Source of the DNA: a phage
DNA length: 51,874 bases
Sequence record: PZ386979.1
Direction: 5' to 3' (one strand)
A model generated the notes under the pieces. It was not told where the DNA came from. It ran no database searches and saw nothing but the letters and a program-made list of their open reading frames with translations. This document shows, one piece after another, positions 36,448 to 51,874 of this stretch. The position numbers and the translations under genes were made by a program. Positions within the stretch are counted from its first letter, which is position 1. Each line of letters opens with the position of its first letter.

Positions 36448-36826
36448 ATCTTTTCCTTAGAGCTTCTATTTGTTGTCTATTAGCATTTGACGTAAACAAT
36501 TCTTCATCGCTCATTTCTCCGATCCTTAAAACATCCCTTACCCATTCGTTTTGCATACCTTCCAGGCTGTAAAGTTCAAACGAGAAGGGGCGATTTGCTG
36601 ATCCTTTCTTACACCAGAACTTTCCACCAACTCCATCAAGATAACCAGCGGTCATCATTCTTGAGCAAAATTCTTTTGAAACGGCAGTTGCAAACATCCT
36701 CGGCGTAAATCCTGCGGCCCTTGCGAGCCGCTCACATTCTCTATGCTGAAATATAAATTTCGCTATATGTTGACGTGTAAACCATTCGAATGACTCACAC
36801 CAGCGATACAGATCCAGAAGAAACAT
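36434..36826 (-). CDS. hypothetical protein
   Basis: 130 aa; start 4 nt after upstream stop (coupled); no recognised motif. Confidence 0.45.
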   Translation of the reverse strand: MFLLDLYRWCESFEWFTRQHIAKFIFQHRECERLARAAGFTPRMFATAVSKEFCSRMMTAGYLDGVGGKFWCKKGSANRPFSFELYSLEGMQNEWVRDVLRIGEMSDEELFTSNANRQQIEALRKRYGLE

Positions 36827-36828
36827 AA

Positions 36829-38412: not shown

Positions 38413-38439
38413 TGATGATAACTCCTTTTTGATGCGGCA

Positions 38440-38483
38440 ATAATACCGCACCAATGCTACCCGCATTTAACAAAAAATGCTAT
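38440..38483 (-). promoter_or_regulatory. conserved element plus -10 (upstream of DUF3987-like gene)
   Basis: Minus-sense ATAGCATTTTTTGTTAAA containing upstream stop TAG; 20-nt spacer; TATTAT; then AAGGAG RBS. Confidence 0.5.
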
Positions 38484-38701
38484 TTGATCCGCTCTATGCT
38501 AACTAAGATTTTTTCTGGTTCCTTTGCGCTATGGCAATGCGCGGTTACGGAATCAACAAAATCAAAATAAAGTGATTTGTGGTAAGAAAGACCAATCATC
38601 CATCCAACCATCGTTTTCTTTATTGGCCTGACTATATCGCCAGGCTTGAAGGTTTTTGTTGCTGAATAAGTCACCTTATAGCGATATTCAGTCTTGATCA
38701 C
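38480..38701 (-). CDS. hypothetical protein
   Basis: 73 aa; GTG start per ORF track; stop TAG lies inside a conserved element copy. Confidence 0.4.
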   Translation of the reverse strand: MIKTEYRYKVTYSATKTFKPGDIVRPIKKTMVGWMIGLSYHKSLYFDFVDSVTAHCHSAKEPEKILVSIERIK

Positions 38702-39084
38702 TTATACATAGCCTCAAACAAATGACAGCCACCAGCGGAAAATCCTACTTCTTCGCGGTATAGCGTCCAGCGGTCGCCAGCTTCATCAAAAACATAACCA
38801 GCAACAGCGCCAAGCGCGCGGCCTTGCTCAATCTGGTAACGCTTTCCTTCTTTGAAATGCTTTTTACACGGGATTTTGTGATCTACAAAGGTGCATTTAA
38901 TTGTTTTTGTCTTGATATGACGATAGTCAGACTCAACAGCGTTTTGCCACTTGCTACCCTTTGTAATGCTCTTTACCTGGAATTGTTCCAACTCGATCAC
39001 ATCATCGCTACCAGAAATTTTTTCGTATACGGTTTTATAGCGCCCGTCCATCAAAACGTTGGTTTTATTGCAGATAACTTTCAT
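38698..39084 (-). CDS. hypothetical protein
   Basis: 128 aa; AAAGGAG RBS; downstream of conserved element and -10 (39116..39160). Confidence 0.5.
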   Translation of the reverse strand: MKVICNKTNVLMDGRYKTVYEKISGSDDVIELEQFQVKSITKGSKWQNAVESDYRHIKTKTIKCTFVDHKIPCKKHFKEGKRYQIEQGRALGAVAGYVFDEAGDRWTLYREEVGFSAGGCHLFEAMYK

Positions 39085-39115
39085 CTTTTATTTCTCCTTT
39101 CGTTTCGGTGAAGTG

Positions 39116-39159
39116 ATTATGCCAGGCTTTTACACCTGGCTTTTAACAAAAAGTGCTAT
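39116..39159 (-). promoter_or_regulatory. conserved element plus -10
   Basis: Minus-sense ATAGCACTTTTTGTTAAAA with stop TAG inside; spacer inverted repeat GCCAGG...CCTGGC; CATAAT. Confidence 0.55.
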
Positions 39160-39866
39160 TTTGCGTTAGCTTCAAAGACGGCGCGAGCAAATCCGCGCGG
39201 AGTGAGGGAGCGTAGTTGCTTTGTTCTGGCAGACTTACCGCCTAAAAACTTCCAACCCCAAAAGAACATTACGCCCTCATCATTGGATAACGGCTTGCGT
39301 TCCGGTTCGGTAAATCCGTTGCCGCACCAGATAGCCGTCCTTTTAGTGTAGCCATCCTTTAGCGGCATTTTGGGGTGAAATGACCCATCGGATTCGTCCA
39401 AGTAGTTACCAAAATCGCGCGGATTGAAATAAAAATCCGGCTTGCGCCATAGCGTTGATAGTCGGCCTACCGGATTCTCAGCCATCCAGGGAACACCGAA
39501 ATGATTTCCGACTTTTTCAACCATGATTGCATTTTGGAGCGCGATATGAATATCGTCTTCGCTGCGCACATGCTTACTTCCTGATTGGGCGAACATGGTG
39601 CAGTCTGGAAAGCCAAATACAATATCAGGTTTTGGAATATCCATCTTAATGATGTTTTCAATGAAATTTTCATCAATCCACATATTCACATAATGCAGAT
39701 TTTCATGCTTCATTTTGATGAAATATTCTCCGTGATTGCCTTCGTCAGCGTTAAAGCAATAGCATTGATAACCAGCCTTCGCATATTCAAGCAACATGAT
39801 TCCAGATCCATCAAACATTGAGTAAGCAACTTTATTTCCCATGATTTTTATGATACCCCAATTCAT
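39156..39866 (-). CDS. methyltransferase-like protein (divergent C5-cytosine MTase-like motifs)
   Basis: 236 aa; FDGSG (motif I-like), GFPDCTMFAQSG (PC-like), AENPVG (ENV-like); GAGGTGA RBS; assignment tentative. Confidence 0.35.
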   Translation of the reverse strand: MNWGIIKIMGNKVAYSMFDGSGIMLLEYAKAGYQCYCFNADEGNHGEYFIKMKHENLHYVNMWIDENFIENIIKMDIPKPDIVFGFPDCTMFAQSGSKHVRSEDDIHIALQNAIMVEKVGNHFGVPWMAENPVGRLSTLWRKPDFYFNPRDFGNYLDESDGSFHPKMPLKDGYTKRTAIWCGNGFTEPERKPLSNDEGVMFFWGWKFLGGKSARTKQLRSLTPRGFARAVFEANAK

Positions 39867-39874
39867 TCATCACC

Positions 39875-40099
39875 TCAAAACGGAAAGCATCGAGGGCAGT
39901 TAGGATCAAAATTGCAGCAGCAATCATTGACAATCATCGTTGGATCTGCAAATGCAGCGCCGCATTCTTGGTCCATATCCATTTCACCCAACGCATCATC
40001 AAGCGTCCTGATTTTATATGCGACCTCAAGCGCGGCCTCTTTATTCAGTCCGGCATCTTCTGCTTTTTGCAGTCGCTCAAAAAAACCGTCTTGACTCAT
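39875..40099 (-). CDS. hypothetical protein (Cys-rich C-terminus)
   Basis: 74 aa; acidic; ends DCCCNFDPNCPRCFPF. Confidence 0.45.
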   Translation of the reverse strand: MSQDGFFERLQKAEDAGLNKEAALEVAYKIRTLDDALGEMDMDQECGAAFADPTMIVNDCCCNFDPNCPRCFPF

Positions 40100-40209
40100 T
40101 TAATAAACTCCTTAACAACAGCAAGAATAATCACAAGCCCAGCAGTAAAAACAAGCAAACCGACAAGGCCAATCATAACACAAAATAAAATATCAAGCGC
40201 CTTAATCAT
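40096..40209 (-). CDS. small hydrophobic membrane peptide (putative)
   Basis: 37 aa MIKALDILFCVMIGLVGLLVFTAGLVIILAVVKEFIK; 4-nt overlap with downstream gene start; weak RBS. Confidence 0.3.
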   Translation of the reverse strand: MIKALDILFCVMIGLVGLLVFTAGLVIILAVVKEFIK

Positions 40210-40223
40210 TTATTCACCATTGA

Positions 40224-40248
40224 TAAAATGGGAGGCGAAAACCTCCCA
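40224..40248 (-). terminator. terminator-like hairpin in leftward early operon
   Basis: Minus sense TGGGAGG-ttttcg-CCTCCCA then ATTTTAT. Confidence 0.45.
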
Positions 40249-40256
40249 TTGGTTAA

Positions 40257-40484
40257 TCATACAGCTTTCCAGCTTTCAATAAACATGCTGTTTTCTTCCA
40301 GAAGTTTAATCAATTCTTCGCGCGTATATTTGCGGATTTTACTACCAGGATGCGAGCCAACAACAAACACACCTTTGCCGCTTGTGATTGTTAACTGGCT
40401 GATTCCACAAGATTTATCCATTTTTACGGCGACGCGGTGATGCGCATCAATAGTGTGCATGATGTTAGTGACTTTAGCTTTCAT
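40257..40484 (-). CDS. hypothetical protein
   Basis: Start at ATG 40484 (MKAKVTNIM) behind GAGGA RBS, downstream of conserved element and -10 (40515..40557); terminator 40224..40248 follows. Confidence 0.45.
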   Translation of the reverse strand: MKAKVTNIMHTIDAHHRVAVKMDKSCGISQLTITSGKGVFVVGSHPGSKIRKYTREELIKLLEENSMFIESWKAV

Positions 40485-40514
40485 TATGCAATCCTCATTA
40501 TATTTGGTGTGGTA

Positions 40515-40557
40515 ACTATACCAAGTTTGCGAAATATTGTTTAACAATTCGTGCTAT
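40515..40557 (-). promoter_or_regulatory. conserved element (variant ATAGCACGAATTGTTAAAC) plus -10 TATAGT
   Basis: Follows TGA of tiny ORF; 18-nt spacer; TATAGT; GAGGA RBS. Confidence 0.5.
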
Positions 40558-40658
40558 CAGTTGAAATAGCTATGGCGCTTTGCTCGCTTTCCATCTCCGC
40601 CATAATGATCATTTGCAACAGCTACCATCCAGGCATTATGGAATATTATTAGCTTCAT
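40557..40658 (-). CDS. tiny ORF (33 aa)
   Basis: MKLIIFHNAWMVAVANDHYGGDGKRAKRHSYFN; its TGA stop abuts a conserved element copy, as seen for larger genes. Confidence 0.25.
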   Translation of the reverse strand: MKLIIFHNAWMVAVANDHYGGDGKRAKRHSYFN

Positions 40659-40940
40659 CTAATTAATACCCACCACGTTAAAATTTACAGCTTTTGTTGC
40701 GCTAAACACATACGCTTCAACAGCGCCGCCAAATACACGAATTTTACCCTGGCCGTACTGCGCATTCATATTTCGCCAAACCGTTCTATTAGAGCAGAAT
40801 GCGCTACCAGTCTTAATAAGCGTATCCATCTCTTTTCTTAGATCGCGATAGTCCAGCCAGAATCTAAAGGCACGCTGTTTAATTCTCGCCGCCTTGATTT
40901 TTTCTCTTGCGCTATTGAAATCATTCTTTTCGTATGCCAT
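40659..40940 (-). CDS. hypothetical protein
   Basis: 93 aa; basic; in leftward early operon. Confidence 0.45.
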   Translation of the reverse strand: MAYEKNDFNSAREKIKAARIKQRAFRFWLDYRDLRKEMDTLIKTGSAFCSNRTVWRNMNAQYGQGKIRVFGGAVEAYVFSATKAVNFNVVGIN

Positions 40941-41137
40941 TAAATGATCTCCATGTATGTTTCAAAGCCATTTAACTTGAACAGGCCGTTTTCACATTTG
41001 CGCACGTTCCAAGTTAGCCCTGAGTGGTACGCCTCCATATCATCAAGGTCAATGGTGATTTCAGCACCTTTCTTAAACAAACCTTTTTCGTGAGACTTGT
41101 CGCGCTTAACAACTTTAACATCAACCTGATTTTCCAT
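40940..41137 (-). CDS. hypothetical protein
   Basis: 65 aa; GAGGA RBS; downstream of conserved element and -10 (41169..41212). Confidence 0.45.
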   Translation of the reverse strand: MENQVDVKVVKRDKSHEKGLFKKGAEITIDLDDMEAYHSGLTWNVRKCENGLFKLNGFETYMEII

Positions 41138-41168
41138 CTTTAAATCCTCGCTTGTTGTCGATGCGTGT

Positions 41169-41212
41169 AATATACCAATCAGAGGCGCATCGGTTTTAAC
41201 AAAAAGTGCTAT
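41169..41212 (-). promoter_or_regulatory. conserved element plus -10
   Basis: Minus-sense ATAGCACTTTTTGTTAAAAC abutting TAA stop; 18-nt spacer; TATATT. Confidence 0.5.
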
Positions 41213-41479
41213 TTAGTCCATGAATTCGATTTCGCGCTCGCCAGTTAACGGATCTACAAGCCAGAATCCGAGCGGCTCACCGTAAACACCGCCATAGAAT
41301 CCAAGCGCCGACAGATCTTCACCTTTAACAAATACCAGATCACCGCTACGGCTTACGTGAGACACGTTAACGATAACCGGAAATGTGCGGTTTTTAAATG
41401 CAGGCCGCAGGGCGTAACACCCGTTATTTAGCAAACGTGCTTTGCGCTTAACTGGAATAGGTGCATTGATTCGCGCCAT
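41213..41479 (-). CDS. hypothetical protein
   Basis: 88 aa; stop TAA abuts conserved element. Confidence 0.45.
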   Translation of the reverse strand: MARINAPIPVKRKARLLNNGCYALRPAFKNRTFPVIVNVSHVSRSGDLVFVKGEDLSALGFYGGVYGEPLGFWLVDPLTGEREIEFMD

Positions 41480-41492
41480 ATTTATTTCTCCT

Positions 41493-41738
41493 TCATTGTT
41501 TATCGCGTTTAACGGCCCTCAGAACATCACAGGACTCGTTAATAAATTTTGCCATGCGCTTATCATCACCAACAGGGATTAGCGCATTACACTCGCGTTT
41601 TCTACTGAAAACCGTTACTTTATGAAACGATGCGAACGGCATCGACGGAAACTCGACTGTTTGCGTCAAGATCCGCAATCCCATCTTTTTGGCCCTTACC
41701 TGGGCCTCAGCGAGTTCAAAATCCACTTCATTAATCAT
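41493..41738 (-). CDS. hypothetical protein
   Basis: 81 aa; leftward early operon. Confidence 0.45.
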   Translation of the reverse strand: MINEVDFELAEAQVRAKKMGLRILTQTVEFPSMPFASFHKVTVFSRKRECNALIPVGDDKRMAKFINESCDVLRAVKRDKQ

Positions 41739-42007
41739 TTCTTGATCTCCTCAGCAATAAACTTCAGGACTTTGCGCAAAAACACTTCATTATTGATGGT
41801 CGCTGGCAATTCCTCTTTCACTTCTTGCGGCAGGTAAACGTTGCCATGCCAGGTTAAGCAATCGTAGTTGATACGATAAGAGCAAAGCCACTCGCAATCG
41901 TTATCCGCTTCCCAAATGCAGAGTTGCAGAACATCACCTAAATCCTCAACAGTCAGATCCAGACCGTGACGCTTTGCAAAGTTGAAAGTGGTTTTGCTGA
42001 TGTTCAT
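41735..42007 (-). CDS. hypothetical protein (first leftward early gene)
   Basis: 90 aa; CAGGAG RBS; downstream of conserved element and -10 (42042..42085). Confidence 0.5.
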   Translation of the reverse strand: MNISKTTFNFAKRHGLDLTVEDLGDVLQLCIWEADNDCEWLCSYRINYDCLTWHGNVYLPQEVKEELPATINNEVFLRKVLKFIAEEIKK

Positions 42008-42041
42008 TGCTATCTCCTGAGCGGTTCGTTTCGATGTGTGT

Positions 42042-42085
42042 AATGTACCCGATCAGGCGGATTCAGTTTTAACAAAAAGTGCTAT
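42042..42085 (-). promoter_or_regulatory. conserved element plus -10 (leftward early promoter)
   Basis: Minus-sense ATAGCACTTTTTGTTAAAAC; 18-nt spacer; TACATT; CAGGAG RBS; first gene of leftward early block. Confidence 0.5.
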
Positions 42086-42381
42086 TTGCTGACTGGTCAT
42101 TATTCCTTCTATTCCATTAATCAGGAATAACAGGAATAATTCATTCGCGATCACCTGGATTGTGAGACTTTGAGTTTGATCAATTTTAATCAGTTGATTA
42201 ACTTTTTGTGTGGAGGGGATGGAGAAACGCGGCCCTCTTGCATCCTTTCCGGCAATCCTGGCGCGCGCATCTGTTATTTCTGTTCCCCATGTTATCTCAA
42301 ATAAGCCTCCGCACTTTTAGATAACAGAATCGGCGTTCATCAACAAAAAGAACAAAATAAAATTTATATATATACCAATAA

Positions 42382-42396
42382 AATCAATAAGTTAGT
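42382..42396 (+). repeat. AATCAATAAGTTAGT 15-mer (copy 2)
   Basis: Identical to 21041..21055. Confidence 0.6.
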
Positions 42397-42626
42397 TATA
42401 TATGTATTTATATTTGTTATTTACTGTTGAGCTTGTTCCATGGGTATATGGTGGGTGTTGATGATTCCTTCATTTAACATTTGTACTTTTTATGCGGTTA
42501 TATATATAGATTTTGCGGCATTATCGAGACAACCAGTGAACGAGATTGAACGAGCTTTAAAATCAATCACTTGCGCGCAATTTTGTTATCGCGTCAAAAA
42601 AAGATGTTATTAGAACGAAAAATCAG

Positions 42627-42655
42627 TTGACTACCTGGCTGTGAGTATTGATAAT
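42627..42655 (+). promoter_or_regulatory. sigma70-like early promoter (TTGACT-17-GATAAT) for rightward early operon
   Basis: -35 TTGACT 42627..42632, -10 GATAAT 42650..42655; upstream TTAGAACGAAAAA block shared with promoter at 21298. Confidence 0.6.
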
Positions 42656-42687
42656 GCACGCAGACAAAACGAAAAGGGAGACAGCAC

Positions 42688-42987
42688 ATGACAAAAATGC
42701 TTGCAATAAACCGAAAACTTGAAGTGAAAGAGATGTCACAAGATGATATTGATGATTTGGCGCGCGGCATGACAACAGGTTACATGCGGAGAATTGTCAA
42801 TCACTTGATTAACTCTGAACGAAATAAGGCCGTATACATCAGCATAAATCACGCTGGAGGGAATGCTGCATCAATGCGACAGATGATTAACAACGTGGCA
42901 AAAGAGTTAAATGTTGATGTTAAGACGTTTGTTGTTGATGGATTCCTGGGCCTGGTAATACTTGAAGTTAACGAAGCGTTTGCATAA
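42688..42987 (+). CDS. hypothetical protein (first rightward early gene)
   Basis: 99 aa; AAGGGAG RBS; 30 nt after sigma70-like promoter TTGACT-17-GATAAT. Confidence 0.5.
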   Translation: MTKMLAINRKLEVKEMSQDDIDDLARGMTTGYMRRIVNHLINSERNKAVYISINHAGGNAASMRQMINNVAKELNVDVKTFVVDGFLGLVILEVNEAFA

Positions 42988-42998
42988 GGAGTAAGAGA

Positions 42999-43460
42999 AT
43001 GGAGCAAGAATTTATTAACCGCGCGGCATTTTGCGACACGTTGCGAGATATTGGAAGGGCTATCGGTAGCGGTGAGCGAGAAACCGTATTTATGCCTGAA
43101 ATCTACCTGAGAAGTCGAGTTGAGGGGGGCGAAGCAATTACGGCATCGTACATGCGCCAGGTTGTCAACCGCGTACCTGAAGTAAAGCAAAAAGGCGTGA
43201 TCAGCATTAAGCGAAAGGTGACTGATGAGGGTGATGGCTTTGTGTTTACGCTCACTGAAGCCAAAAGCAAGCCTCGCGTGCTGACTGGAGACGATATAGC
43301 GAAACTTGAAATCAAGTGGCGAGCAAAGTTTATTGCTCAACTTCTGAAAACTCAGCCGAGAATCAGCGACCTGGAAGGCGAGCGCCTGGAGGGTGCGGCA
43401 ATCGCACTTGAGCGAATGAATGAAATGCTTAGCGAGATGGTAAAGATGGGGGATGAATAA
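42999..43460 (+). CDS. hypothetical protein
   Basis: 153 aa; AAGGAG RBS. Confidence 0.5.
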   Translation: MEQEFINRAAFCDTLRDIGRAIGSGERETVFMPEIYLRSRVEGGEAITASYMRQVVNRVPEVKQKGVISIKRKVTDEGDGFVFTLTEAKSKPRVLTGDDIAKLEIKWRAKFIAQLLKTQPRISDLEGERLEGAAIALERMNEMLSEMVKMGDE

Positions 43461-43726
43461 TGAATAAGGCATTAATTGGAGTTTTGATTGCAATCGCTAC
43501 CCTGACCGGATGCGAAAAGGCATCTGAATCAACAGTTGTCGTAGGAGTGGAGTCAGATTTTAAAGTCGGTCGCCTGTTTACTGTTGATGGATGCACTGCG
43601 TACCGATTCTATGATAACGGTCACGCGATCTATTACACCAACTGCAAGGGCACGACTAGCTGGGAAGTGTCGAAAAGCAACGGCAAGGTAACGACAACAG
43701 AACATATGACAGTGGAGACAAAATAG
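43460..43726 (+). CDS. early lipoprotein (putative)
   Basis: 88 aa; signal peptide with lipobox LTGC; stop TAG inside conserved element. Confidence 0.5.
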   Translation: MNKALIGVLIAIATLTGCEKASESTVVVGVESDFKVGRLFTVDGCTAYRFYDNGHAIYYTNCKGTTSWEVSKSNGKVTTTEHMTVETK

Positions 43727-43766
43727 CACTTTTTGTTAAAACTCAAAAACGATAACCAGGCATAAT
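43723..43766 (+). promoter_or_regulatory. conserved element plus -10
   Basis: ATAGCACTTTTTGTTAAAAC containing lipoprotein stop TAG; 18-19 nt spacer; CATAAT. Confidence 0.55.
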
Positions 43767-43821
43767 AAATCACATAGGGCGGCACGGCGTCGCCCAGTTA
43801 AACCAATCAGGAGAAAGCACC

Positions 43822-44715
43822 ATGTTAAAACTTGCTGACATTAAATTCCCGATCACCTTCGAATCTCGTGGTGTTGGTCATTACGTTTTTACAGATGAGA
43901 AAACATGCCATAACGTTTGGTTGCACAGCGATAAGTTAAGCCCATCAACAATGGAGATTCAGCACTTTATTGATGCGCATAATCAGCACTACAACTCAAT
44001 CCGGGACTACGGCTACGCAATGCCAGGCTACACATGCTTGCACTACAAGCCATATAAGGGCCAGGTGTTACCAGTGCGCTCACCGGAACGCGCAGAGATT
44101 CCAATGGTCCATATGAAAACATGCGACTACAAAAAGCTGTGGTGCTTAAGTGTGGACAATATCAAGTATCCGATCACGTTCCACACGACTGGCAAGTTAA
44201 CGATTCGCTACACATCGCGCGACAATGGCGTTTATAGCGATGGTACGAAATCAGAGTTGAAAGTTGATTTCTTTGTCAATGGTCACAACAAATTCAATCC
44301 GCACAACGAAGAGGATAAAGTGTATTACGTGGAAGACATTACAAAACACTTGTTTGGAGAAACTCCATTCGGCGGCGGGAAGACGGCAATTCAGAAAATC
44401 ATTGGCGAGGAGATCCATAAAGCGGCTGTCGAAATGAAAGCGCCTGGAGGCTGGCGTATTGACAAGAGCGCCTTTGCCTATCAAGAAATCGTAACGCAGG
44501 GCGCGATTGAAGATATGCCAGTTACAGCCACGCTAAAAGGAGTCCGGCTTGATGACGGCAGTTGGTATGAATTAACAGCTACACCAAAGACGATCGAAAT
44601 TCATGATGATGTTGTTATCCTTCTGCTTCACTACGGCGGCACTAAAAACCGGACTGTTGCAGGTGAGATCCGCATCAAGCGCGGAGCGATGGTTAAGTGG
44701 AAGGTGAAGATTTGA
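43822..44715 (+). CDS. hypothetical protein with internal duplication
   Basis: 297 aa; two related segments (LADIKFPITFESRG ... / VDNIKYPITFHTTG ...); CAGGAG RBS. Confidence 0.5.
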   Translation: MLKLADIKFPITFESRGVGHYVFTDEKTCHNVWLHSDKLSPSTMEIQHFIDAHNQHYNSIRDYGYAMPGYTCLHYKPYKGQVLPVRSPERAEIPMVHMKTCDYKKLWCLSVDNIKYPITFHTTGKLTIRYTSRDNGVYSDGTKSELKVDFFVNGHNKFNPHNEEDKVYYVEDITKHLFGETPFGGGKTAIQKIIGEEIHKAAVEMKAPGGWRIDKSAFAYQEIVTQGAIEDMPVTATLKGVRLDDGSWYELTATPKTIEIHDDVVILLLHYGGTKNRTVAGEIRIKRGAMVKWKVKI

Positions 44716-44791
44716 GTTTGCTCACTGCGGCGCACGTCGCCGCATGGATAGGATTGTTTGCCTACATGTTTAGCTTTTATTGAGGTGAGAG

Positions 44792-44944
44792 ATGGCTACA
44801 TGGATTTTGCTGATTCTTATGATTGATGGCGGCGTTGACCATATCGAAATGAATAGCCAGCAATCTTGCATTGAGGCACGAGAGCAGATCAAGAACAACA
44901 ACAGGTTTTATGCGTACACTCACACGCTATGTATTAAGAAATAG
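44792..44944 (+). CDS. small membrane peptide (putative)
   Basis: 50 aa MATWILLILMIDGG...; GAGGTGAGAG RBS; stop TAG is part of a conserved element copy. Confidence 0.35.
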   Translation: MATWILLILMIDGGVDHIEMNSQQSCIEAREQIKNNNRFYAYTHTLCIKK

Positions 44945-44983
44945 CACTTTTTGTTAAAACTCAAATGTGGGGCCAGGTATAAT
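44941..44983 (+). promoter_or_regulatory. conserved element plus -10
   Basis: Element contains TAG of 44792..44944; 17-nt spacer; TATAAT inside GGCC...GGCC inverted repeat. Confidence 0.55.
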
Positions 44984-45013
44984 GGCCTCACTTTCAACGA
45001 AGGAGATAAAACG

Positions 45014-45232
45014 ATGTACATTAAAAAGAAGATGAAATGCGTTTCCGTTAACTATGCTTGCTCTGGCATGTTCAAGCCTGGCGAAATCTATACGGCGCAA
45101 AAACTGAAATCATCAACCGGATCCTTTTACGTGAGCAATAGTAAGGGGCATCGCATGTTCCTGAACGGCGGCGAAGGCACTAAGGTTATGGCACACGCTA
45201 TGGTAATGGCTGAATTTGAGGAGGTGAAATAA
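45014..45232 (+). CDS. hypothetical protein (tandem paralog 1)
   Basis: 72 aa; start ATG 45014 behind AAGGAG RBS; paralog of 45232..45477 (F.LNG..GT...A...V.AEFE). Confidence 0.45.
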   Translation: MYIKKKMKCVSVNYACSGMFKPGEIYTAQKLKSSTGSFYVSNSKGHRMFLNGGEGTKVMAHAMVMAEFEEVK

Positions 45233-45477
45233 TGATCATTGAAAACAACTTTCTTTGCGTTAAGAGCAATCGACCATTCTTCACGCCTGGCAAGGTGTAC
45301 CAGGGCAAGAAGGACACAAGAGATGGTCACTCTTATCATGTTCACTGCAACAACGGATACAAGTTTTACCTTAACGGTAATAATGGAACTGAGATTGTTG
45401 CGTTTGAAAACGTAATTGCCGAGTTCGAGCAGATTACAGACGCGGAATTTGAGGAAGTGAAAGATGAAAACAAATAA
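45232..45477 (+). CDS. hypothetical protein (tandem paralog 2)
   Basis: 81 aa; shares PG..Y...K...G.S.Y/H... FYLNGNNGTEIVAFENVIAEFE with upstream gene. Confidence 0.45.
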   Translation: MIIENNFLCVKSNRPFFTPGKVYQGKKDTRDGHSYHVHCNNGYKFYLNGNNGTEIVAFENVIAEFEQITDAEFEEVKDENK

Positions 45478-45685
45478 GCGCGTCAAGCACAGGTTTACTG
45501 ATAACCACGGCGACGCGATTGATGTATACAAGTTCGGCGATCGCGTGTTTATTGATGGCACGTTTGAAGGTGGTCGTAGGCCGGATTTTAGGTCGATACT
45601 TACCGTTGACCAAGTGCGCAAGCTGGCAGATAAGTTAAATGATCTGGCAGATGAAATAGAATACAAGCAAATCCATTTTAATTGA
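45464..45685 (+). CDS. hypothetical protein
   Basis: 73 aa; overlaps upstream gene end. Confidence 0.4.
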   Translation: MKTNKRVKHRFTDNHGDAIDVYKFGDRVFIDGTFEGGRRPDFRSILTVDQVRKLADKLNDLADEIEYKQIHFN

Positions 45686-45696
45686 TAGGTTTGATA

Positions 45697-46410
45697 ATGA
45701 AAAAATACACTTTCGAACTGTGGGGCAAGAAGTACGAATTAATCACCAGCAAGCCGATTGTTATCGTTGACCTGGACGGCACGCTATCGGACGGATCGCA
45801 TCGTTTGCATTTGCTGCCAACTGAAAACTTGCACCTTACGGAATCGTGGCGCGAGTTTAACAGGGCCGCCTCCGGAGATTCACCGATTAAAAGCACTATC
45901 GCGGTTATTAACGGTTTATGGGTGTCGGGATTTGCCATCGTCATCCTGACCGGACGCAGCGACGAGGTTCGCTATGAAACCTGCAAATGGTTGAATGAGA
46001 ACGGCGTGAAGTTTGACGAAATCATCATGCGCCGCCAGGAGGACAACCGAAAGGATACTGTTATTAAAGAAGAAGCCTTGCGCGCTATTGGCCTGGACAA
46101 CATTGTTTGCGCCTTTGACGATTCGCCGAGCGTGGTTAAGCACTTCCGCAGCTTGGGGATCACAACCTATCAGGTCACGGAATACGACAAGCCACACGCT
46201 CACATACAATCTCACGGCGTGGAATCAATAAAGATCACGAAGCGCGCCCGATTCGTCGGCAGCAAAGACAGCCTGGTCAATGCCAGCTTTATCAAAGGCA
46301 AGGTTTATGATGTTCATAGCCATGATAAAAACCGATTCTTTTTGTGGGATGAAAAAGGTTTTGGCTGGTGCTTTGAACACGACGACGGCGATTTTGTTAA
46401 CGCGGAGTAA
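45697..46410 (+). CDS. HAD-superfamily phosphatase (polynucleotide 3'-phosphatase/nucleotidase-like)
   Basis: 237 aa; HAD motif I DLDGTLSDG near N-terminus. Confidence 0.55.
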   Translation: MKKYTFELWGKKYELITSKPIVIVDLDGTLSDGSHRLHLLPTENLHLTESWREFNRAASGDSPIKSTIAVINGLWVSGFAIVILTGRSDEVRYETCKWLNENGVKFDEIIMRRQEDNRKDTVIKEEALRAIGLDNIVCAFDDSPSVVKHFRSLGITTYQVTEYDKPHAHIQSHGVESIKITKRARFVGSKDSLVNASFIKGKVYDVHSHDKNRFFLWDEKGFGWCFEHDDGDFVNAE

Positions 46411-46416
46411 TTATAA

Positions 46417-46608
46417 ATGGCTGACTTTATGCATCAAATGATTGTTGTATTTAAGGGCAGTGAAGATGAAGAGGTTCGCGAATGCTTCACCATTGAGAAA
46501 TCATACAGCGCATCTTTAACCAGTTTTGGCAACATATCTATGATTGATGATAATGGCGATCCGTGGATTTTTGAAGATGATACGGATTGCTTTGAGATTA
46601 AAGAATAG
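46417..46608 (+). CDS. hypothetical small acidic protein
   Basis: 63 aa; highly acidic; stop TAG inside conserved element. Confidence 0.45.
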   Translation: MADFMHQMIVVFKGSEDEEVRECFTIEKSYSASLTSFGNISMIDDNGDPWIFEDDTDCFEIKE

Positions 46609-46648
46609 CACTTTTTGCAAAAACAGATTATCGGGCTTGCGGTATAGT
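46605..46648 (+). promoter_or_regulatory. conserved element (ATAGCACTTTTTGCAAAAAC) plus -10 TATAGT
   Basis: Contains stop TAG; spacer/-10 within inverted repeat GGGCTT...AAGCCC. Confidence 0.5.
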
Positions 46649-46679
46649 AAGCCCATCAACAACAAACGAGGATTAAATC

Positions 46680-46943
46680 ATGGCTAACAAGATCGAGTTT
46701 TTTAAAGCGGTAGACATTATCGACGGCGCGCCTAGCTTCTTTGCTATCCATTCTATTGACGGCAAGGATATTGGGTACAACGTTATCCGTCGAGATGGAA
46801 TATCAAAACTTAGTGACCTGGTAGGCCATATTGTGTCAATCGGGAAATGCGCATGGCCCGATTCGCCACGAGAGCCGCGCCGCCGCGACATGGTAGAGCC
46901 TGTTCTGCTTTACACTCTGGTAGTAGAAGGAGAAAATAAATGA
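46680..46943 (+). CDS. hypothetical protein
   Basis: 87 aa; GAGGA RBS; downstream of conserved element and -10. Confidence 0.45.
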   Translation: MANKIEFFKAVDIIDGAPSFFAIHSIDGKDIGYNVIRRDGISKLSDLVGHIVSIGKCAWPDSPREPRRRDMVEPVLLYTLVVEGENK

Positions 46944-47140
46944 TTTGGTTACTTGCTTTTTTGGTTGTTTTTCTTTACATTTCAGGATTATTCACGTTCC
47001 GCGCGTTGGTGAAAACATGCGATTGCACGGATAAAGATCAGCCTCTTGTTCTGATGTTCTGGTTTGTGTGGTTTTGGGTTGTGTGGTTTTGGGTTGCGCT
47101 TTATCAGATTGTACGGGATAAAAGCGGATTCAAGTGGTGA
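46940..47140 (+). CDS. small membrane protein (Trp/Phe-rich TMD)
   Basis: 66 aa; two hydrophobic helices; contains perfect 15-bp tandem duplication encoding VWFWVVWFWV. Confidence 0.45.
   Translation: MIWLLAFLVVFLYISGLFTFRALVKTCDCTDKDQPLVLMFWFVWFWVVWFWVALYQIVRDKSGFKW
47066..47095 (+). repeat. perfect 15-bp tandem duplication (GTGTGGTTTTGGGTT x2) inside membrane protein gene
   Basis: Two adjacent identical 15-mers, in frame, encoding VWFWV VWFWV. Confidence 0.8.
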
Positions 47141-47334
47141 TTCTTACTATAGCGCATTCACGCAGTGCGCTATGTTGAGATAACAACATGAGATCATGAA
47201 GATGCGAAACTTCGAAAAAATCGTATCCAAAAAGAAGCGATACAGCTACCACGAGCACCAAGAGATGAATCAACGCTATCGCAATAAGCGCCAGCGCAAA
47301 GGTAAACATTCCGGTAAACATGGAGAAAATCAAT

Positions 47335-47925
47335 ATGAAACGAGACATTATCATCCTTAACGGACCGCCAGGAGTTGGCAAAGATACGCTTGCCGCATAC
47401 TTAACGGGCCATCGTTACGCAGCGGTTAAAGCGTCGTTTAAACAGCCGATGTTTGATATTGCATTCTCCATGCTTGGCGTTTACAGATATGACGAGTTCA
47501 TTGATCTGTATAACGACCGCGAGCAGAAAGAAAAGCCTCAAGCAATCTTGCAAGGCAAGTCTCCGCGACAATTCATGATTTGGATTAGTGAAGAAGTCAT
47601 GAAGCCAGCTTTTGGCGAGCAATATTTTGGGAATCGCATGGTTGAGCAGGTACACGAGATGTACAGAGATTTAGCTGTTGTAATTAGTGATGGAGGATTC
47701 CCTGAAGAAATCAAGCCGCTCGTTAAGGCAGGCCATGAAGTTCACATTTGCCGACTGCATCGCGAAGGATTCACGTTTGATGGCGATTCGCGAAACTATA
47801 TTGACCTGAGCGGATACCATCACCGAGTCAAGCATTACGACTTCACAATGATTGATGGCGAGCCAGAAAAGACTGTTGACGAGATCATCAAAACGGTGCA
47901 GTGGAAACACATTAAGATCAAATAG
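47335..47925 (+). CDS. P-loop nucleotide kinase (dNMP kinase / polynucleotide kinase-like)
   Basis: Start ATG 47335 behind GGAGAAAA RBS; Walker A GPPGVGKDT resembles the GxxxSGKDT loop of phage dNMP kinases. Confidence 0.6.
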   Translation: MKRDIIILNGPPGVGKDTLAAYLTGHRYAAVKASFKQPMFDIAFSMLGVYRYDEFIDLYNDREQKEKPQAILQGKSPRQFMIWISEEVMKPAFGEQYFGNRMVEQVHEMYRDLAVVISDGGFPEEIKPLVKAGHEVHICRLHREGFTFDGDSRNYIDLSGYHHRVKHYDFTMIDGEPEKTVDEIIKTVQWKHIKIK

Positions 47926-47965
47926 CACGAATTGCTAAAAGCGTGGCGCAATGCCTCGCTATAAT
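47922..47965 (+). promoter_or_regulatory. conserved element variant (ATAGCACGAATTGCTAAAAG) plus -10 TATAAT
   Basis: Contains kinase stop TAG; 18-nt spacer; TATAAT. Confidence 0.55.
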
Positions 47966-47995
47966 GCAAACACCAATCAACGAGAGGAAATCATC

Positions 47996-48394
47996 ATGGT
48001 AGAGTTAAACGACATTCGCGTTGGAACAAAATTTCGCGTAACCTGGGCAGATAAATATTGCGGAGTTAGCAAGGGCCAGGTTGTTACTGTGGATAGCATT
48101 TATCGCGGATGCAGCAAAGACTTTCGCCGACCACGCATCAAGAATGGCTATATCATTACTCGACGACTTGGCTTTGATCATTATTGCGTAGTGGCAAAAG
48201 GCGTTTTGATTGAGCTTAAGCGAATCAGCGATCATCGCGGCTGCCATGTTAAGACAATGAAAACACCATTTCAGCGAGCGCGATACGATGCGCGCAGGAT
48301 GCGCCGTCTTGCACGAAACGCGATCAAGTTCAAAAAGCATGGTGGTAACTTTTACCTAATGTACAAAGGGATTGCGCGAAATGCTGGAAAATAA
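47996..48394 (+). CDS. hypothetical basic protein
   Basis: Start ATG 47996 behind GAGAGGAAA RBS (longer track ORF begins upstream of predicted -10 at 47960..47965); Arg/Lys-rich. Confidence 0.45.
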   Translation: MVELNDIRVGTKFRVTWADKYCGVSKGQVVTVDSIYRGCSKDFRRPRIKNGYIITRRLGFDHYCVVAKGVLIELKRISDHRGCHVKTMKTPFQRARYDARRMRRLARNAIKFKKHGGNFYLMYKGIARNAGK

Positions 48395-48512
48395 CAACAA
48401 CGCAACCAATCCAAAGCCGCCATTTGATTTTCATGAAATCATGATTGTGTTATTCTTGATTCTCTTAGTTGTTTATTCAGTGAGGGCCGCAATATGGTTT
48501 TTAATGCACTAA
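48381..48512 (+). CDS. small membrane peptide (putative)
   Basis: 43 aa with TMD IMIVLFLILLVVYSV; overlaps neighbouring genes; not in ORF track. Confidence 0.25.
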   Translation: MLENNNNATNPKPPFDFHEIMIVLFLILLVVYSVRAAIWFLMH

Positions 48513-48757
48513 AACGAATCTTTAAACCTGAATACCGGATCGTTGCTTGCACAGAATGCAAGATTTATTATCTGCAACGCCGCCGCGTTATTAGTGGGGA
48601 TTGGGAATATCTGACTGATGATGCTTTCGGCTTTTGGGCTATGGAGTTCAATAGCTACAGCGAAGCGCGTGAGTACGCTAAAAAGTTGCACAAGTTCAGA
48701 CCTTACAAGCTGCGTTTGCTGGTTGTCAAAAAATGCGATGTGTTGGATCACGAATGA
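48494..48757 (+). CDS. hypothetical protein
   Basis: 87 aa; CxxC pair (CTEC). Confidence 0.4.
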   Translation: MVFNALKRIFKPEYRIVACTECKIYYLQRRRVISGDWEYLTDDAFGFWAMEFNSYSEAREYAKKLHKFRPYKLRLLVVKKCDVLDHE

Positions 48758-49263
48758 AAAGAGTAATTATCATTTTTATTGCCATTATCGCTGGTTGCTA
48801 CCTGGCTTATAATTATAGCGGCATTGTTGAGTCAATCGGCAGGTTGATTATCTTCATGGCTGGCGGGTATGCTGGCTATTATGATGGATTCGAAAACGGA
48901 AAGCGTTACATGCTTACCGGAAAAAGAAGTAATGTTAACCGCGCCGCTTCGGTGGCGCTAAAAGGAGGAAACAAAATGGCTAAAAGCAATCGTAAAATGT
49001 TGATTAACGCATTCGAAAAGGCGGCGCTTGAGCGTGGTTGGAATGACTCATTTCACACAGCAAACTGTATCCGCCGTTACGGATTCAAGAATTGCCGATC
49101 CTGGGCGCGTCAAATGGCTTCATGGTATGATCTTGATGCGCATTACCTTGATATGGATTGCGCCCTGGTTGAAATGATTGAGCAGGCAGCATTAGAGGAT
49201 CGACCATTAACGCAATCTGATTTTGACGATTTTGTGCGCGATGAAATCTATTACATGAGCTAA
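48754..49263 (+). CDS. membrane/lipoprotein-like protein (putative)
   Basis: Start ATG 48754 (ATGA overlap); N-terminal hydrophobic segment with lipobox-like IIAGC; stop abuts conserved element. Confidence 0.45.
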   Translation: MKRVIIIFIAIIAGCYLAYNYSGIVESIGRLIIFMAGGYAGYYDGFENGKRYMLTGKRSNVNRAASVALKGGNKMAKSNRKMLINAFEKAALERGWNDSFHTANCIRRYGFKNCRSWARQMASWYDLDAHYLDMDCALVEMIEQAALEDRPLTQSDFDDFVRDEIYYMS

Positions 49264-49306
49264 TAGCACTTTTTGTTAAAACTTCCGCGAGGGCATTTGT
49301 TAAAGT
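49263..49306 (+). promoter_or_regulatory. conserved element with weak -10-like TAAAGT
   Basis: Element abuts TAA stop; 18 nt later TAAAGT; partial second core TTTGTTAAAG in spacer. Confidence 0.4.
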
Positions 49307-49338
49307 GTCCTCATTGAAGCGAAACAGAGGAAATAAAA

Positions 49339-49551
49339 ATGAAAATTCGAATCACCAGGGTTGACATTGACCGTAACGACGGAAGCATTACCCTTGAGCA
49401 ATGCGGATTCAAAGTTGGTGACATTGTAGAGGTTGACGGATTCTTTCGCGATGGTTCTTACTGCGTGTTAGCAATCCGAAACACAGAAGAAATTCGAATC
49501 GGTGATAACATCGGCGTAAACCATGACGAATGCGAGGTAGTAGAAGAATGA
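49339..49551 (+). CDS. hypothetical small acidic protein
   Basis: 70 aa; GAGGAAA RBS; acidic. Confidence 0.45.
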   Translation: MKIRITRVDIDRNDGSITLEQCGFKVGDIVEVDGFFRDGSYCVLAIRNTEEIRIGDNIGVNHDECEVVEE

Positions 49552-49781
49552 TCACGATTAACCTGTCAGAGCAGCAAGCAGCACAGATTATGCGTCATAT
49601 TTCCGTAATGGGTATTGATGGTGATTTCTCTGAAGTGGTGAAGCAGATTTATCGCCAACTTGCGCCAGCATCAACAATGGCGTCTGAGGTTGCAGTATGG
49701 CGTCACGAGGCAGGATACACGCAAAGGATGATTGAAGACTGGAAGCGCAAAAACGAGACTGCGGAGGATGCAGGATTATGA
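49548..49781 (+). CDS. hypothetical protein
   Basis: Start ATG 49548 overlapping upstream stop (ATGA). Confidence 0.4.
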   Translation: MITINLSEQQAAQIMRHISVMGIDGDFSEVVKQIYRQLAPASTMASEVAVWRHEAGYTQRMIEDWKRKNETAEDAGL

Positions 49782-50092
49782 TTTACATTCACTACTACCA
49801 GATCGGGACAAACGAAAACAAGCATGATCGCAGAGCAATTTGTGACACGCTCGAAGATGCGAAAGCACAGCAACGCGTTTTGGGTGGTGTAATTCAGGCT
49901 TTTGAGCCAGTGGAAGACATAGAGCACAGAGAGCATTTGAAAGAGATTGTTGTTGATGAAATTTCATCACTAATCGACGACATGACAAATCACGGTCCTG
50001 GTTCTCCGTGGGAAGAAGCTGGATCGACGGAGTGGGATTGCGCTAAAGTTGCAACTCTTAACAACTTTCGTGAGTTGCTCGACGATTTTTAA
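49778..50092 (+). CDS. hypothetical acidic protein
   Basis: 104 aa; ATGA overlap with upstream gene; acidic. Confidence 0.45.
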   Translation: MIYIHYYQIGTNENKHDRRAICDTLEDAKAQQRVLGGVIQAFEPVEDIEHREHLKEIVVDEISSLIDDMTNHGPGSPWEEAGSTEWDCAKVATLNNFRELLDDF

Positions 50093-50162
50093 TTAAAATT
50101 GAATGCCTTATACAGCGAACAGGACGCATTTTGACGAGGCATTTTTTAGGTAAGGTGATTCA

Positions 50163-50291
50163 ATGGATAACTACATAAAACCGTCGCAGTGGTGCGCACA
50201 GATGCAAGAGGAAGCATTAGAACGAGGCGACACTGAAACGGCAATGCACTATTTCGAAATGTACAACTTGTGGAAGGGTAGAGGTCTGTAA
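50163..50291 (+). CDS. small ORF (42 aa)
   Basis: MDNYIKPSQWCAQMQEEALERGDTETAMHYFEMYNLWKGRGL; AAGGTGA RBS; TAATG overlap with next gene. Confidence 0.3.
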   Translation: MDNYIKPSQWCAQMQEEALERGDTETAMHYFEMYNLWKGRGL

Positions 50292-50521
50292 TGTTTGGAA
50301 TGAACGAGGCACAATTCAACGCTGCAAAACGCCAGGCTAAGAAGTGCGGAGAGGCAATGAAGGCGGATGTTGAAAAGCGCGGAAAGTATGTTGATGAAGT
50401 TATGAAGGGCATTATTGCCGAACATTATCAGCCAGTTTCGCCAATGCTGACAATTACCCAATTCATCTGGTTGTGTGGTTATCTTCGTGGGCGATGGGGA
50501 AACGCATTTGACCGCGAATGA
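50291..50521 (+). CDS. hypothetical protein
   Basis: 76 aa. Confidence 0.4.
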   Translation: MFGMNEAQFNAAKRQAKKCGEAMKADVEKRGKYVDEVMKGIIAEHYQPVSPMLTITQFIWLCGYLRGRWGNAFDRE

Positions 50522-50667
50522 TTGACAACGATTTACTGATTGGTTAACATCTTCGGTGTTTACATAAGAGCGGCGTTAGTGCCGAACGGGTGGCGCGGTT
50601 GCCACGCAACAACGGCGATATGCAGGTTTTTACCGTAATACGTATCGCCTTTTTTATAGGTGAATAT

Positions 50668-50901
50668 ATGGAAAAGTACAAATTAACTTTCATGTTTAAT
50701 AGTATGGTGATGAATCCCTTAAATGGTTACGCTTGCAATAGCTTTTCTGTTACCGTGAATGAGGATGAAATTGATGATGATGGCAAATTCATTCGAATTG
50801 GTGAATACTTGTACCCAGTTCACAATATCAATTGCATCAAACGCGAGATCGTAAAAGATGAAGTACAAAGTAAAGCTGACGATCAGGCGAATGGGGCGTA
50901 A
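50668..50901 (+). CDS. hypothetical protein
   Basis: Start ATG 50668 behind AGGTGA RBS, after hairpin plus T-run at 50614..50655. Confidence 0.4.
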   Translation: MEKYKLTFMFNSMVMNPLNGYACNSFSVTVNEDEIDDDGKFIRIGEYLYPVHNINCIKREIVKDEVQSKADDQANGA

Positions 50902-51046
50902 TTGCCAGTCATGTAGGCAGGATTTTGAATGCGAGATTTCAGCGCAAAATCCTGTTGACGCGATTCAATGTGCTAAAGTTATATCAGGTGCAGATCCAGA
51001 GACGCATCAATTTTCAATAAATTTTGTAAGGGAAGTATCATGTTAA
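50858..51046 (+). CDS. hypothetical protein
   Basis: 62 aa; overlaps upstream ORF by 44 nt, weak RBS; several Cys. Confidence 0.3.
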   Translation: MKYKVKLTIRRMGRNCQSCRQDFECEISAQNPVDAIQCAKVISGADPETHQFSINFVREVSC

Positions 51047-51273
51047 ACTTAATTTCTGCTTTTGTTATTGGTTTTGTTTTTGCTGTGATTATTCTGCTTA
51101 TCGCGTCGGAAAAGATTTGCAAATTTCTTGCTAAGAACGGGAAGTTTGCAAGCGCGACATGGAATAACAAGATGCAGCGATGGGATGTGCGCGGTCACTA
51201 TCTGACGATTGGCAGCAAAATCCATCAGCATCTGAAGAATCAAGAAGATGAAAAAGTAAAATACAAGTATTGA
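51040..51273 (+). CDS. small membrane protein
   Basis: 77 aa; N-terminal TMD (LISAFVIGFVFAVIILLIA); AAGGGAAG RBS; terminator follows. Confidence 0.45.
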   Translation: MLNLISAFVIGFVFAVIILLIASEKICKFLAKNGKFASATWNNKMQRWDVRGHYLTIGSKIHQHLKNQEDEKVKYKY

Positions 51274-51280
51274 CCAACTA

Positions 51281-51304
51281 CCCGCCAAATGGCGGGTTTT
51301 TTAT
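51281..51304 (+). terminator. rho-independent terminator before terS
   Basis: CCCGCC-aaat-GGCGGG followed by TTTTTT. Confidence 0.7.
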
Positions 51305-51353
51305 TGCCTACAATTTGTCTATAATGATGCTTTGTTATAAAGGAGGGCGCATT

Positions 51354-51874
51354 ATGGCTAAAAACGTTGAGCCAGCAGTAAAGGCTTGCAATTTTAAAAA
51401 ACTATATAATAAGCAATATGGCGATATAGCAAAAATGACAAAGGCGCACAAGTACACGCCGGAACAGGTATTTGATCTGGCTGTGCGTTACTTTACGTGG
51501 GCAGAGGAAAATCATATACAGGCTGCGGAAACGGCATCCTTTCAGGGTGACGTATACGAAAGCAAGATTCACAAGCCGCGCGTTTTCACCTTAAATGGAT
51601 TCCGCTTATTCGCTGGCCTTTCTGCTTCCGTGCTTGAGAAATGGCGACGCGAGCCAGGATTCAGCGATGTTATGGACTTTATCGACGGAGTTGTTTACGA
51701 GCAAAAATTCCAGCTTGCTGCAAACAATATTGTTAACGCCGGATTCATTGGTAAAGAGATCGGCATTGAAAAGCCAGCTACCGTTACCATTGAGAATAAC
51801 ACAAGCGCAAGCGTTGACGCTGTAACGGCGGAGGAAGTCAAAGAGGCGGTAATTGACATTCTGGAGAAGATATA
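51354..51874 (+). CDS. terS: terminase small subunit (putative; 3' end runs off window, completed by nt 1)
   Basis: Open frame from ATG 51354 (AAGGAGGG RBS) to window end with no stop; last two nt TA plus nt 1 (A) give TAA overlapping terL ATG; position upstream of terL. Confidence 0.45.
   Translation, partial: MAKNVEPAVKACNFKKLYNKQYGDIAKMTKAHKYTPEQVFDLAVRYFTWAEENHIQAAETASFQGDVYESKIHKPRVFTLNGFRLFAGLSASVLEKWRREPGFSDVMDFIDGVVYEQKFQLAANNIVNAGFIGKEIGIEKPATVTIENNTSASVDAVTAEEVKEAVIDILEKI

What the first reader, a model, noticed from the sequence alone, without database searches (positions are those of the whole stretch)
51354..51874. Window ends join in frame: the terS-like ORF at the 3' end is closed by TAA only when nt 1 is appended
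The ORF from 51354 is open to the last base; the final TA plus A at position 1 gives TAA, overlapping the terL ATG at 1..3 as TAATG. This suggests the window is a complete genome assembled as a circle (or terminally redundant molecule) and cut at terL. Gene content (lambda/N15-like tail genes, Erf plus RecE-like exonuclease, Dam, HNH endonucleases, lipoprotein-plus-TMD spanin candidate, Cor-like lipoprotein) fits a T1-like virulent siphophage.
Basis: partly seen in the sequence, partly recalled or inferred. Interest (0 to 1): 0.5.

Follow-up and report, generated by a model that had tools for sequence, protein, structure and literature searches.

The report
Complete T1-like phage genome opened at terL
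The two ends of the window do join: it is a complete genome of a known kind of T1-like E. coli phage, written as a line that starts at the large terminase gene, which cuts the last base off the neighbouring small terminase gene; this is ordinary bookkeeping, not new biology.

Summary
An ORF starts at ATG 51354 and stays open to base 51874 (173 codons plus TA). Base 1 completes a TAA that overlaps the terL ATG (TAATG). The ORF is a P22-gp3-type small terminase, 173/173 aa identical to the terS of phages Fulano1 and grams. Base 1..1569 is terL.

A joined end+start query aligns as one uninterrupted piece, at 95-98% identity, inside 64 deposited phage genomes. These are mostly genus Hanrivervirus (Drexlerviridae, Tempevirinae). 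The same 1-nt terS/terL overlap is annotated in vojen, grams, Fulano1 and atuna.

The window is collinear with Fulano1 (51,759 bp) as a circular permutation offset by 570 bp. Nothing is missing and there is no terminal duplication.

The join is therefore a linearisation point, not a physical DNA end. In T1 the mapped end and its 2.8-kb terminal repeat lie about 8.4 kb upstream of terS. TLS and one Hanrivervirus are reported as pac/headful packagers. Such genomes assemble as circles, and tools such as Pharokka/Dnaapler reopen them at terL.

The finding is ordinary and low interest.

The parts
51354..51874 (+). Small terminase gene (terS), 173 codons plus the first two bases (TA) of its stop codon. 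The third base is window position 1.
   Evidence: PHROG 606 terS, E=2.7e-53. Pfam GP3_package, 37.3 bits against a cutoff of 29.4. P22 gp3 structure 3P9A, E=4.7e-15. 100% identical over 173 aa to Fulano1 and grams terS.
1..1569 (+). Large terminase gene (terL). Its A at position 1 doubles as the last base of the terS stop codon (TAATG).
   Evidence: PHROG 38 terL, E=3.1e-106; Pfam Terminase_6C, E=1.4e-11. 517/522 residues identical to Fulano1 terL. The same 1-nt overlap is annotated in vojen (10004..10525 / 10525..12093), grams, Fulano1 and atuna.
51341..51346 (+). Shine-Dalgarno sequence AGGAGG, 7 nt upstream of the terS ATG.
   Evidence: Read directly from the sequence.
51280..51297 (+). Terminator-like hairpin followed by a T-run. 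It closes the upstream block of small early ORFs, just before terS.
   Evidence: Scan. The Fulano1 record was opened right after it: Fulano1 position 1 = window 51305.
1570..2076 (+). HNH homing endonuclease inserted between terL and the portal gene. It is absent from the closest relatives.
   Evidence: Pfam HNH_3, E=2.5e-18; PHROG 99, E=1.5e-55. Window 1542..2063 replaces 16 bp of Fulano1. The last 28 nt of terL are recoded.
2145..3425 (+). Portal gene, completing the terS-terL-portal packaging module.
   Evidence: Pfam Phage_portal_3, E=6e-72.
42008..42687 (.). Divergent intergenic region, about 9 kb upstream of terS. It is the inferred counterpart of the T1 pac / left-end region. This is inference only.
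   Evidence: The T1 record starts at its terminal repeat (1..2800), with terS at 8396. T1 3192-3362 matches window 44515-44685. Gene strand switches from - to + here.

Best explanation
The window is the complete, non-redundant genome sequence of a virulent T1-like siphophage of the genus Hanrivervirus (Drexlerviridae, Tempevirinae). It is written as a linear string that someone, or a program, opened at the first base of terL.

In this genus terS and terL overlap by one base (TAATG). Opening at the terL ATG therefore strips the last base of the terS stop codon and leaves terS open at the 3' end.

The most likely biology behind this is headful packaging. The virion DNA would be linear, terminally redundant and partly circularly permuted. 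A P22-gp3-type TerS would recognise a pac site on concatemers, and TerL would cut there and then after each headful of more than one genome length. Reads from such DNA assemble into a circle, and the circle must be opened somewhere. The junction is therefore not a physical end.

Shown here: the join, the completeness, the gene identities and the genus. Inferred from relatives: headful packaging, the location of pac, and why the record starts at terL.
For: - The junction is contiguous in 64 independent records and in an IMG/VR metagenome contig, where L016 4905/4906 matches window 51874/1.
- The alignment shows no indel across the join, and TAATG is conserved in Hanrivervirus and Warwickvirus.
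- The whole genome is a collinear circular permutation of Fulano1.
- terS is full length, 173/173 aa identical to annotated terS proteins.
- terS is homologous to P22 gp3.
- The T1 record has its terminal repeat at 1..2800 and terS-terL interior at 8396..10528. T1 terS and terL match window 51456..51778 and 10..1575.
- TLS is reported as terminally redundant with pac-mediated headful packaging (PMC11447400).
- A Hanrivervirus was scored 'Headful (pac)' by PhageTermVirome (PMC13507304).
- All 22 T1-like genomes in the set that includes Fulano1 'circularized upon assembly' (PMC9119101).
- Pharokka/Dnaapler reorient phage genomes to start at terL (bioRxiv 10.64898/2026.08.09.738482).
Against: - There are no reads or virion DNA data for this genome, so terminal redundancy, permutation and the pac site are not shown directly.
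- No exact copy of this phage was found in the collections searched, so its original contig ends could not be inspected.
- TerL gave no sequence hit to any solved terminase, so its packaging class was not tested independently.
Confidence: 0.93

Rival explanations
1. The window ends are true physical genome ends (cos or short direct terminal repeat termini lying between terS and terL), and the in-frame join is incidental.
For: In some cos phages the cohesive end lies just upstream of the terminase genes. HNH endonuclease genes next to terminase genes accompany cos packaging in HK97-like phages, and an HNH gene lies at 1570..2076.
Against: - The cut would fall inside an overlapping stop/start codon pair and would leave terS without a stop.
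- No terminal repeat is present.
- Relatives deposited with many different start points all carry the junction internally.
- The mapped T1 end is 8.4 kb from terS.
- TerS is P22-gp3-like.
- The HNH gene is absent from the nearest relatives, so it cannot be a required packaging factor.
Confidence: 0.02
2. The window is an incomplete fragment of a larger contig or of a prophage. It happens to begin at terL and end in terS of a neighbouring or tandem copy.
For: A tandem or concatemeric assembly cut at one unit length would look the same.
Against: - The length (51,874 bp) and gene order match the 46-52.5 kb complete genomes of the genus.
- Every Fulano1 segment is represented once, in the same circular order.
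- No Fulano1 CDS is annotated as an integrase or repressor, and none turned up among the window ORFs scanned. The segments that differ from Fulano1 are under 700 bp.
- If the source were a concatemer cut at unit length, the conclusion (complete genome, ends join) would be unchanged.
Confidence: 0.03
3. The genome is a complete circle, and the pac site itself lies in or next to terS, as in P22 where pac is inside gene 3. The junction would then be close to the first packaging cut.
For: TerS is homologous to P22 gp3. For TLS the pac sequence was assigned by similarity to P22 pac.
Against: - The stretch of terS homologous to the P22 pac segment (codons for PGFSDVM against EDLSEVV) shares only about 9 of 21 bases, by my reading.
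- In T1 the terminal repeat starts about 8.4 kb upstream of terS.
- SU57 authors likewise place the end in an untranslated region followed by many small ORFs (PMC7718038).
Confidence: 0.1

Closest known systems
Escherichia phage vB_EcoD_Fulano1 (OL539459.1), genus Hanrivervirus, Drexlerviridae
   Same: Collinear over the whole circle. Identity is 97-99% over most segments (down to about 95% in the small-ORF region). terS is identical, and terL matches at 517/522 residues. The TAATG terS/terL overlap is the same.
   Different: - The record is opened 49 nt upstream of terS rather than at terL.
- It lacks the HNH gene after terL.
- It carries HNH genes gp51 and gp53 that the window lacks or has replaced.
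- Several small early-region ORFs differ.
- Summed identities divided by window length give about 94% (my arithmetic). That is borderline for a separate species.
Escherichia phage T1 (NC_005833), the family prototype with experimentally mapped ends
   Same: The terS (P22 gp3-like) - terL - portal order is the same. DNA identity is 67-70% across terS, terL and portal. The 21-nt ATAGCAC repeat is shared.
   Different: - T1 belongs to a different subfamily (Tunavirinae).
- Its terS and terL are separated by 24 nt rather than overlapping.
- Its record begins at the terminal repeat (1..2800), not at a terminase gene.
Salmonella phage P22 gp3/gp2 pac-type headful packaging
   Same: TerS belongs to the same Pfam family (GP3_package) and aligns to the 3P9A chain over residues 35-144.
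   Different: - TerL gave no detectable sequence match to solved terminases.
- The P22 pac sequence is not conserved at the homologous place in terS.
- The pac site probably lies far upstream, as in T1.

Membership tests
Complete, circularly closed genome representation | The end and start of the record are contiguous in independent relatives, with no gap or duplication. | tested here: met
   Single-piece alignment of the artificial junction in 64 records. No indel in alignment A1. Contiguous in IMG/VR contig L016. No terminal repeat.
Complete, circularly closed genome representation | All of a complete relative's genome is present once, in the same circular order. | tested here: met
   blastn against Fulano1 shows collinear blocks covering both records. 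Fulano1's ends are interior at window 51304/51305.
Genus Hanrivervirus (Drexlerviridae, Tempevirinae) | Nucleotide similarity above the genus level (about 70%) across the genome to members of the genus. | tested here: met
   93-98% coverage at 95-99% identity to Fulano1, JLBYU09, grams, aaroes, vojen, Henu8 and others over 1..25000. 80-90% coverage over 26875..51874. Taxonomy lines.
P22 gp3-type small terminase (Pfam PF16677 GP3_package) | Score above the Pfam gathering threshold, and homology to the solved gp3 chain. | tested here: met
   37.3 bits against a cutoff of 29.4. 3P9A E=4.7e-15 over residues 35-144.
pac-type headful packaging | Virion DNA is terminally redundant and (partly) circularly permuted, with a submolar pac fragment. 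| not testable with these tools
   Only literature on relatives is available: T1 repeat_region 1..2800, TLS, Hanrivervirus vB_EcoS-149_4M 'Headful (pac)'.
pac-type headful packaging | TerL clusters with headful-type terminases in a phylogeny. | not tested
   phmmer against PDB gave no hit at E<=0.1. No tree was built.
Unimolecular spanin (T1 gp11 type) | N-terminal lipoprotein signal with a lipobox Cys, plus a C-terminal transmembrane helix, in the lysis cassette. | tested here: met
   ORF 35392..35790 has LSGC at residues 13-16 and a C-terminal hydrophobic stretch IIYCAAIFSGLLTMLYF. PHROG 1804 spanin, E=2.2e-50. It follows the holin and endolysin genes.

The most novel reading that the evidence does not exclude
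The borders of terL may be preferred joints for genetic exchange in this phage group. Three observations point that way. HNH homing endonucleases of one family (phrog_99) sit exactly at the terS/terL TAATG in EC147 and just after terL in this window. The 3' end of terL is recoded next to the insert. One metagenome contig switches from 71.5% to 92.9% identity exactly at the terS/terL boundary. If homing-endonuclease cutting drives this, it would move pac-recognition modules (terS plus the early region) independently of the packaging motor and head genes.
Probability: 0.2. Interest if true: 0.3.

Novelty: already known. Interest (0 to 1): 0.07.

Why it matters
Mostly as housekeeping. It shows the window is a whole genome, so gene-absence statements about it are valid. 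It also shows that the open terS is an artefact, not a truncated or fused gene. The practical lesson is that automatic reorientation to the terL start codon breaks the upstream gene whenever terS and terL overlap. A linear annotation of such a record can then lose or mislabel terS. Nothing here changes what is known about T1-like phage packaging.

Tried and rejected
- Exact search for the 30-nt junction in IMG/VR: no hit. Relatives differ there by a G/T SNP at terL codon 3.
- Exact-protein look-ups of the window's HNH and TerL to find the source contig: not on record. The original contig ends could therefore not be inspected.
- TerL against solved structures by sequence: no hit, so no packaging-class inference from TerL.
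- Using the start points of relatives' records as a guide to physical ends: rejected. The vojen record start maps to window 41198, inside minus-strand genes, and record start points vary widely between relatives.
- P22-like pac sequence in terS: only the hexamer GAAGAT near the junction, and about 9/21 matches at the homologous codons. I judged both to be chance.
- Records that end just after terS (ExeTerminator, RCIP0026), checked for the same broken-stop artefact: terS is complete in RCIP0026, with a 9-nt spacer after it. These Webervirus records do not show it.
- Loci fetched in parallel calls were not always exported to the Python sandbox. I worked around this with DNA alignment and single calls.

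Full report
**Observation**

The sequence shows an ATG at 51354. It is preceded by AGGAGG (51341-51346) and by a terminator-like hairpin with a T-run (51280-51297). The frame stays open for 173 codons and ends with TA at 51873-51874. Bases 1-3 are the ATG of a 522-codon ORF, 1..1569. Appending base 1 gives TAA, and the junction reads ATATAATGCTG, a 1-nt stop/start overlap.

An immediate in-frame stop would arise by chance about once in twenty. The weight therefore rests on the comparisons below.

**What the two ORFs are**

- The 3' ORF matches PHROG 606 'terminase small subunit' (E=2.7e-53). It matches Pfam GP3_package above the gathering score (37.3 against 29.4 bits). It also matches the solved P22 gp3 chain 3P9A (E=4.7e-15, residues 35-144).
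- ORF 1..1569 matches PHROG 38 'terminase large subunit' (E=3.1e-106) and Pfam Terminase_6C.
- An HNH endonuclease (1570..2076) and the portal gene (2145..3425) follow.

**Do the ends really join?**

- *Full-length terS.* The 173-aa product is 100% identical over its full length to the annotated terS of Fulano1 and grams. The protein therefore ends at codon 173.
- *Contiguity in deposited genomes.* A 602-nt query made from the last 295 and first 307 bases aligns as one piece in the interior of 64 phage records. Coverage is 100% and identity 95-98%.
- *Same overlap in relatives.* In vojen, terS is 10004..10525 and terL is 10525..12093, the same 1-nt overlap. Grams, Fulano1 and the Warwickvirus atuna show it too.
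- *No indel at the join.* An alignment across the join shows no indel against vojen, Fulano1, grams, pSf-1 and A127. The only difference is one G/T SNP in terL codon 3.
- *Metagenome contig.* An IMG/VR contig (L016) is also contiguous there: positions 4905/4906 match window 51874/1.
- *No duplication.* No exact terminal repeat links the two window ends.

**Is the genome complete?**

blastn of the window against the rebuilt Fulano1 genome (51,759 bp) gives collinear blocks around the whole circle. Window 51305..51874 matches Fulano1 1..570. Window 1..1541 matches Fulano1 571..2111. Window 46604..51304 runs to the Fulano1 record end.

Each record's ends therefore lie inside the other record, which is the signature of two permutations of one circular map. 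The differences are small cassettes:

- The HNH gene after terL is present only in the window.
- Fulano1 HNH gp51 is absent from the window.
- The region around Fulano1 gp53 is replaced.
- A few early-region ORFs are diverged.

Summed identities over the window length give about 94%. This is my arithmetic. It is borderline for a separate species within Hanrivervirus.

**What kind of phage it is**

The closest records are Hanrivervirus (Drexlerviridae, Tempevirinae).

- Lambda-type tail module: Phage_tail_3, TMP_2 plus Tape_meas_lam_C, Phage_min_tail, Phage_tail_L, a JAB+NlpC/P60 gpK-type protein, Lambda_tail_I and GpJ domains.
- Cor, exonuclease VIII, Erf, SSB, two DNA methyltransferases, a second HNH, holin, endolysin and spanin.
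- The spanin has an LSGC lipobox and a C-terminal membrane helix, the unimolecular type known from T1. Cor has an LTGC lipobox.
- No Fulano1 CDS is annotated as an integrase or repressor, and none turned up among the window ORFs scanned. The segments that differ from Fulano1 are too short to hold an integrase.

**How it most likely works**

The junction is not a physical DNA end.

- In the T1 record the terminally redundant region is annotated at 1..2800, and terS-terL lie at 8396..10528. T1 terS and terL match window 51456..51778 and 10..1575.
- TLS, in the same subfamily, is described as terminally redundant, partly permuted and packaged from a pac site by the headful mechanism (PMC11447400).
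- A Hanrivervirus was scored 'Headful (pac)' by PhageTermVirome (PMC13507304).
- SU57 behaved as circularly permuted (PMC7718038).
- All 22 T1-like genomes in the set that includes Fulano1 circularised on assembly (PMC9119101).

Reads from such DNA give a circular assembly that must be opened somewhere. Opening at terL is what Pharokka/Dnaapler do (bioRxiv 10.64898/2026.08.09.738482). Because terS and terL share one base here, that choice cuts the terS stop codon.

By synteny with T1, I place the likely pac region in the divergent intergenic stretch at about 42008..42687. This placement is inference. So are headful packaging for this particular genome and the reason for the chosen start point.

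**Rivals**

- *True cos or DTR ends at the junction.* This is contradicted by the codon overlap, the lack of a repeat, the relatives and the T1 map.
- *A fragment of something larger.* This is contradicted by the one-to-one circular collinearity.
- *A P22-like pac inside terS.* This stays possible at low probability. The homologous stretch of terS is not similar to P22 pac, by my reading.

**Verdict**

The finding is real and correctly interpreted, but ordinary. It is a known genus, a known packaging style and a known bookkeeping convention. Its only practical value is as a caution for annotation.

**Side observations**

- HNH homing endonucleases sit at both borders of terL in different genus members.
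- There is a mosaic joint exactly at the terS/terL boundary in one metagenome contig.
- The window holds 13 copies of the 21-nt ATAGCAC...TAAAA repeat already described, without a known function, in TLS.

Noticed in passing
window 1542..2076: An HNH homing endonuclease gene (168 aa, PHROG 99) lies between terL and the portal gene. It is absent from Fulano1 and vojen. The last 28 nt of terL next to it are recoded (mostly synonymous changes, 2 aa changes), as expected around a homing site. A related HNH (84% identity over its 3' two-thirds) fills the same slot in BEK12A, BEK26 and several 'Campylobacter phage' A1xx records.
   Followed up: partly
L010 (Escherichia phage EC147, ON185589.1) 522..1013: In this genus member an HNH endonuclease of the same PHROG 99 family is inserted exactly at the terS/terL TAATG. 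The terS stop codon now overlaps the HNH start codon, and terL follows with its own ATG.
   Followed up: partly
window, 13 sites, e.g. 31796, 32837, 41193(-), 42066(-), 43722, 44940, 49262. A variant (ATAGCACGAATTGCTAAAA) at about 2071..2092 holds the HNH stop codon.: The 21-nt repeat AATAGCACTTTTTGTTAAAAC occurs 13 times with up to 3 mismatches; 0 are expected by chance. All 13 are on the coding strand of the nearest long ORFs. It matches the TLS repeat consensus aaATAGCACnnnTTGnTAAAA, whose function the TLS authors list as an open question. A 25-mer containing it is 100% identical in T1.
   Followed up: partly
L016 (IMGVR_UViG_3300045988_032316) 2754..7829 against window 49734..51874 and 1..2925: Identity to the window jumps from 71.5% (terS and upstream early genes) to 92.9% (terL onward) exactly at the terS/terL boundary. 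This suggests a recombination joint that swaps the terS/early module independently of the head genes.
   Followed up: no
phage collection hits MG065636-MG065687: About 21 records named 'Campylobacter phage', with host Campylobacter jejuni and some flagged UNVERIFIED, are 94-96% identical to this E. coli Hanrivervirus. That host label looks doubtful for T1-like coliphages, which are notorious laboratory contaminants.
   Followed up: no
window 36824..39865 against Fulano1 37029..40788: HNH cassettes also vary in the replication region. Fulano1 HNH gp51 is absent from the window. The stretch around Fulano1 HNH gp53 is replaced by two small ORFs of unknown function (38480..38701 and 38698..39084, minus strand). 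The methyltransferase gene 39156..39866 is a diverged allele.
   Followed up: partly
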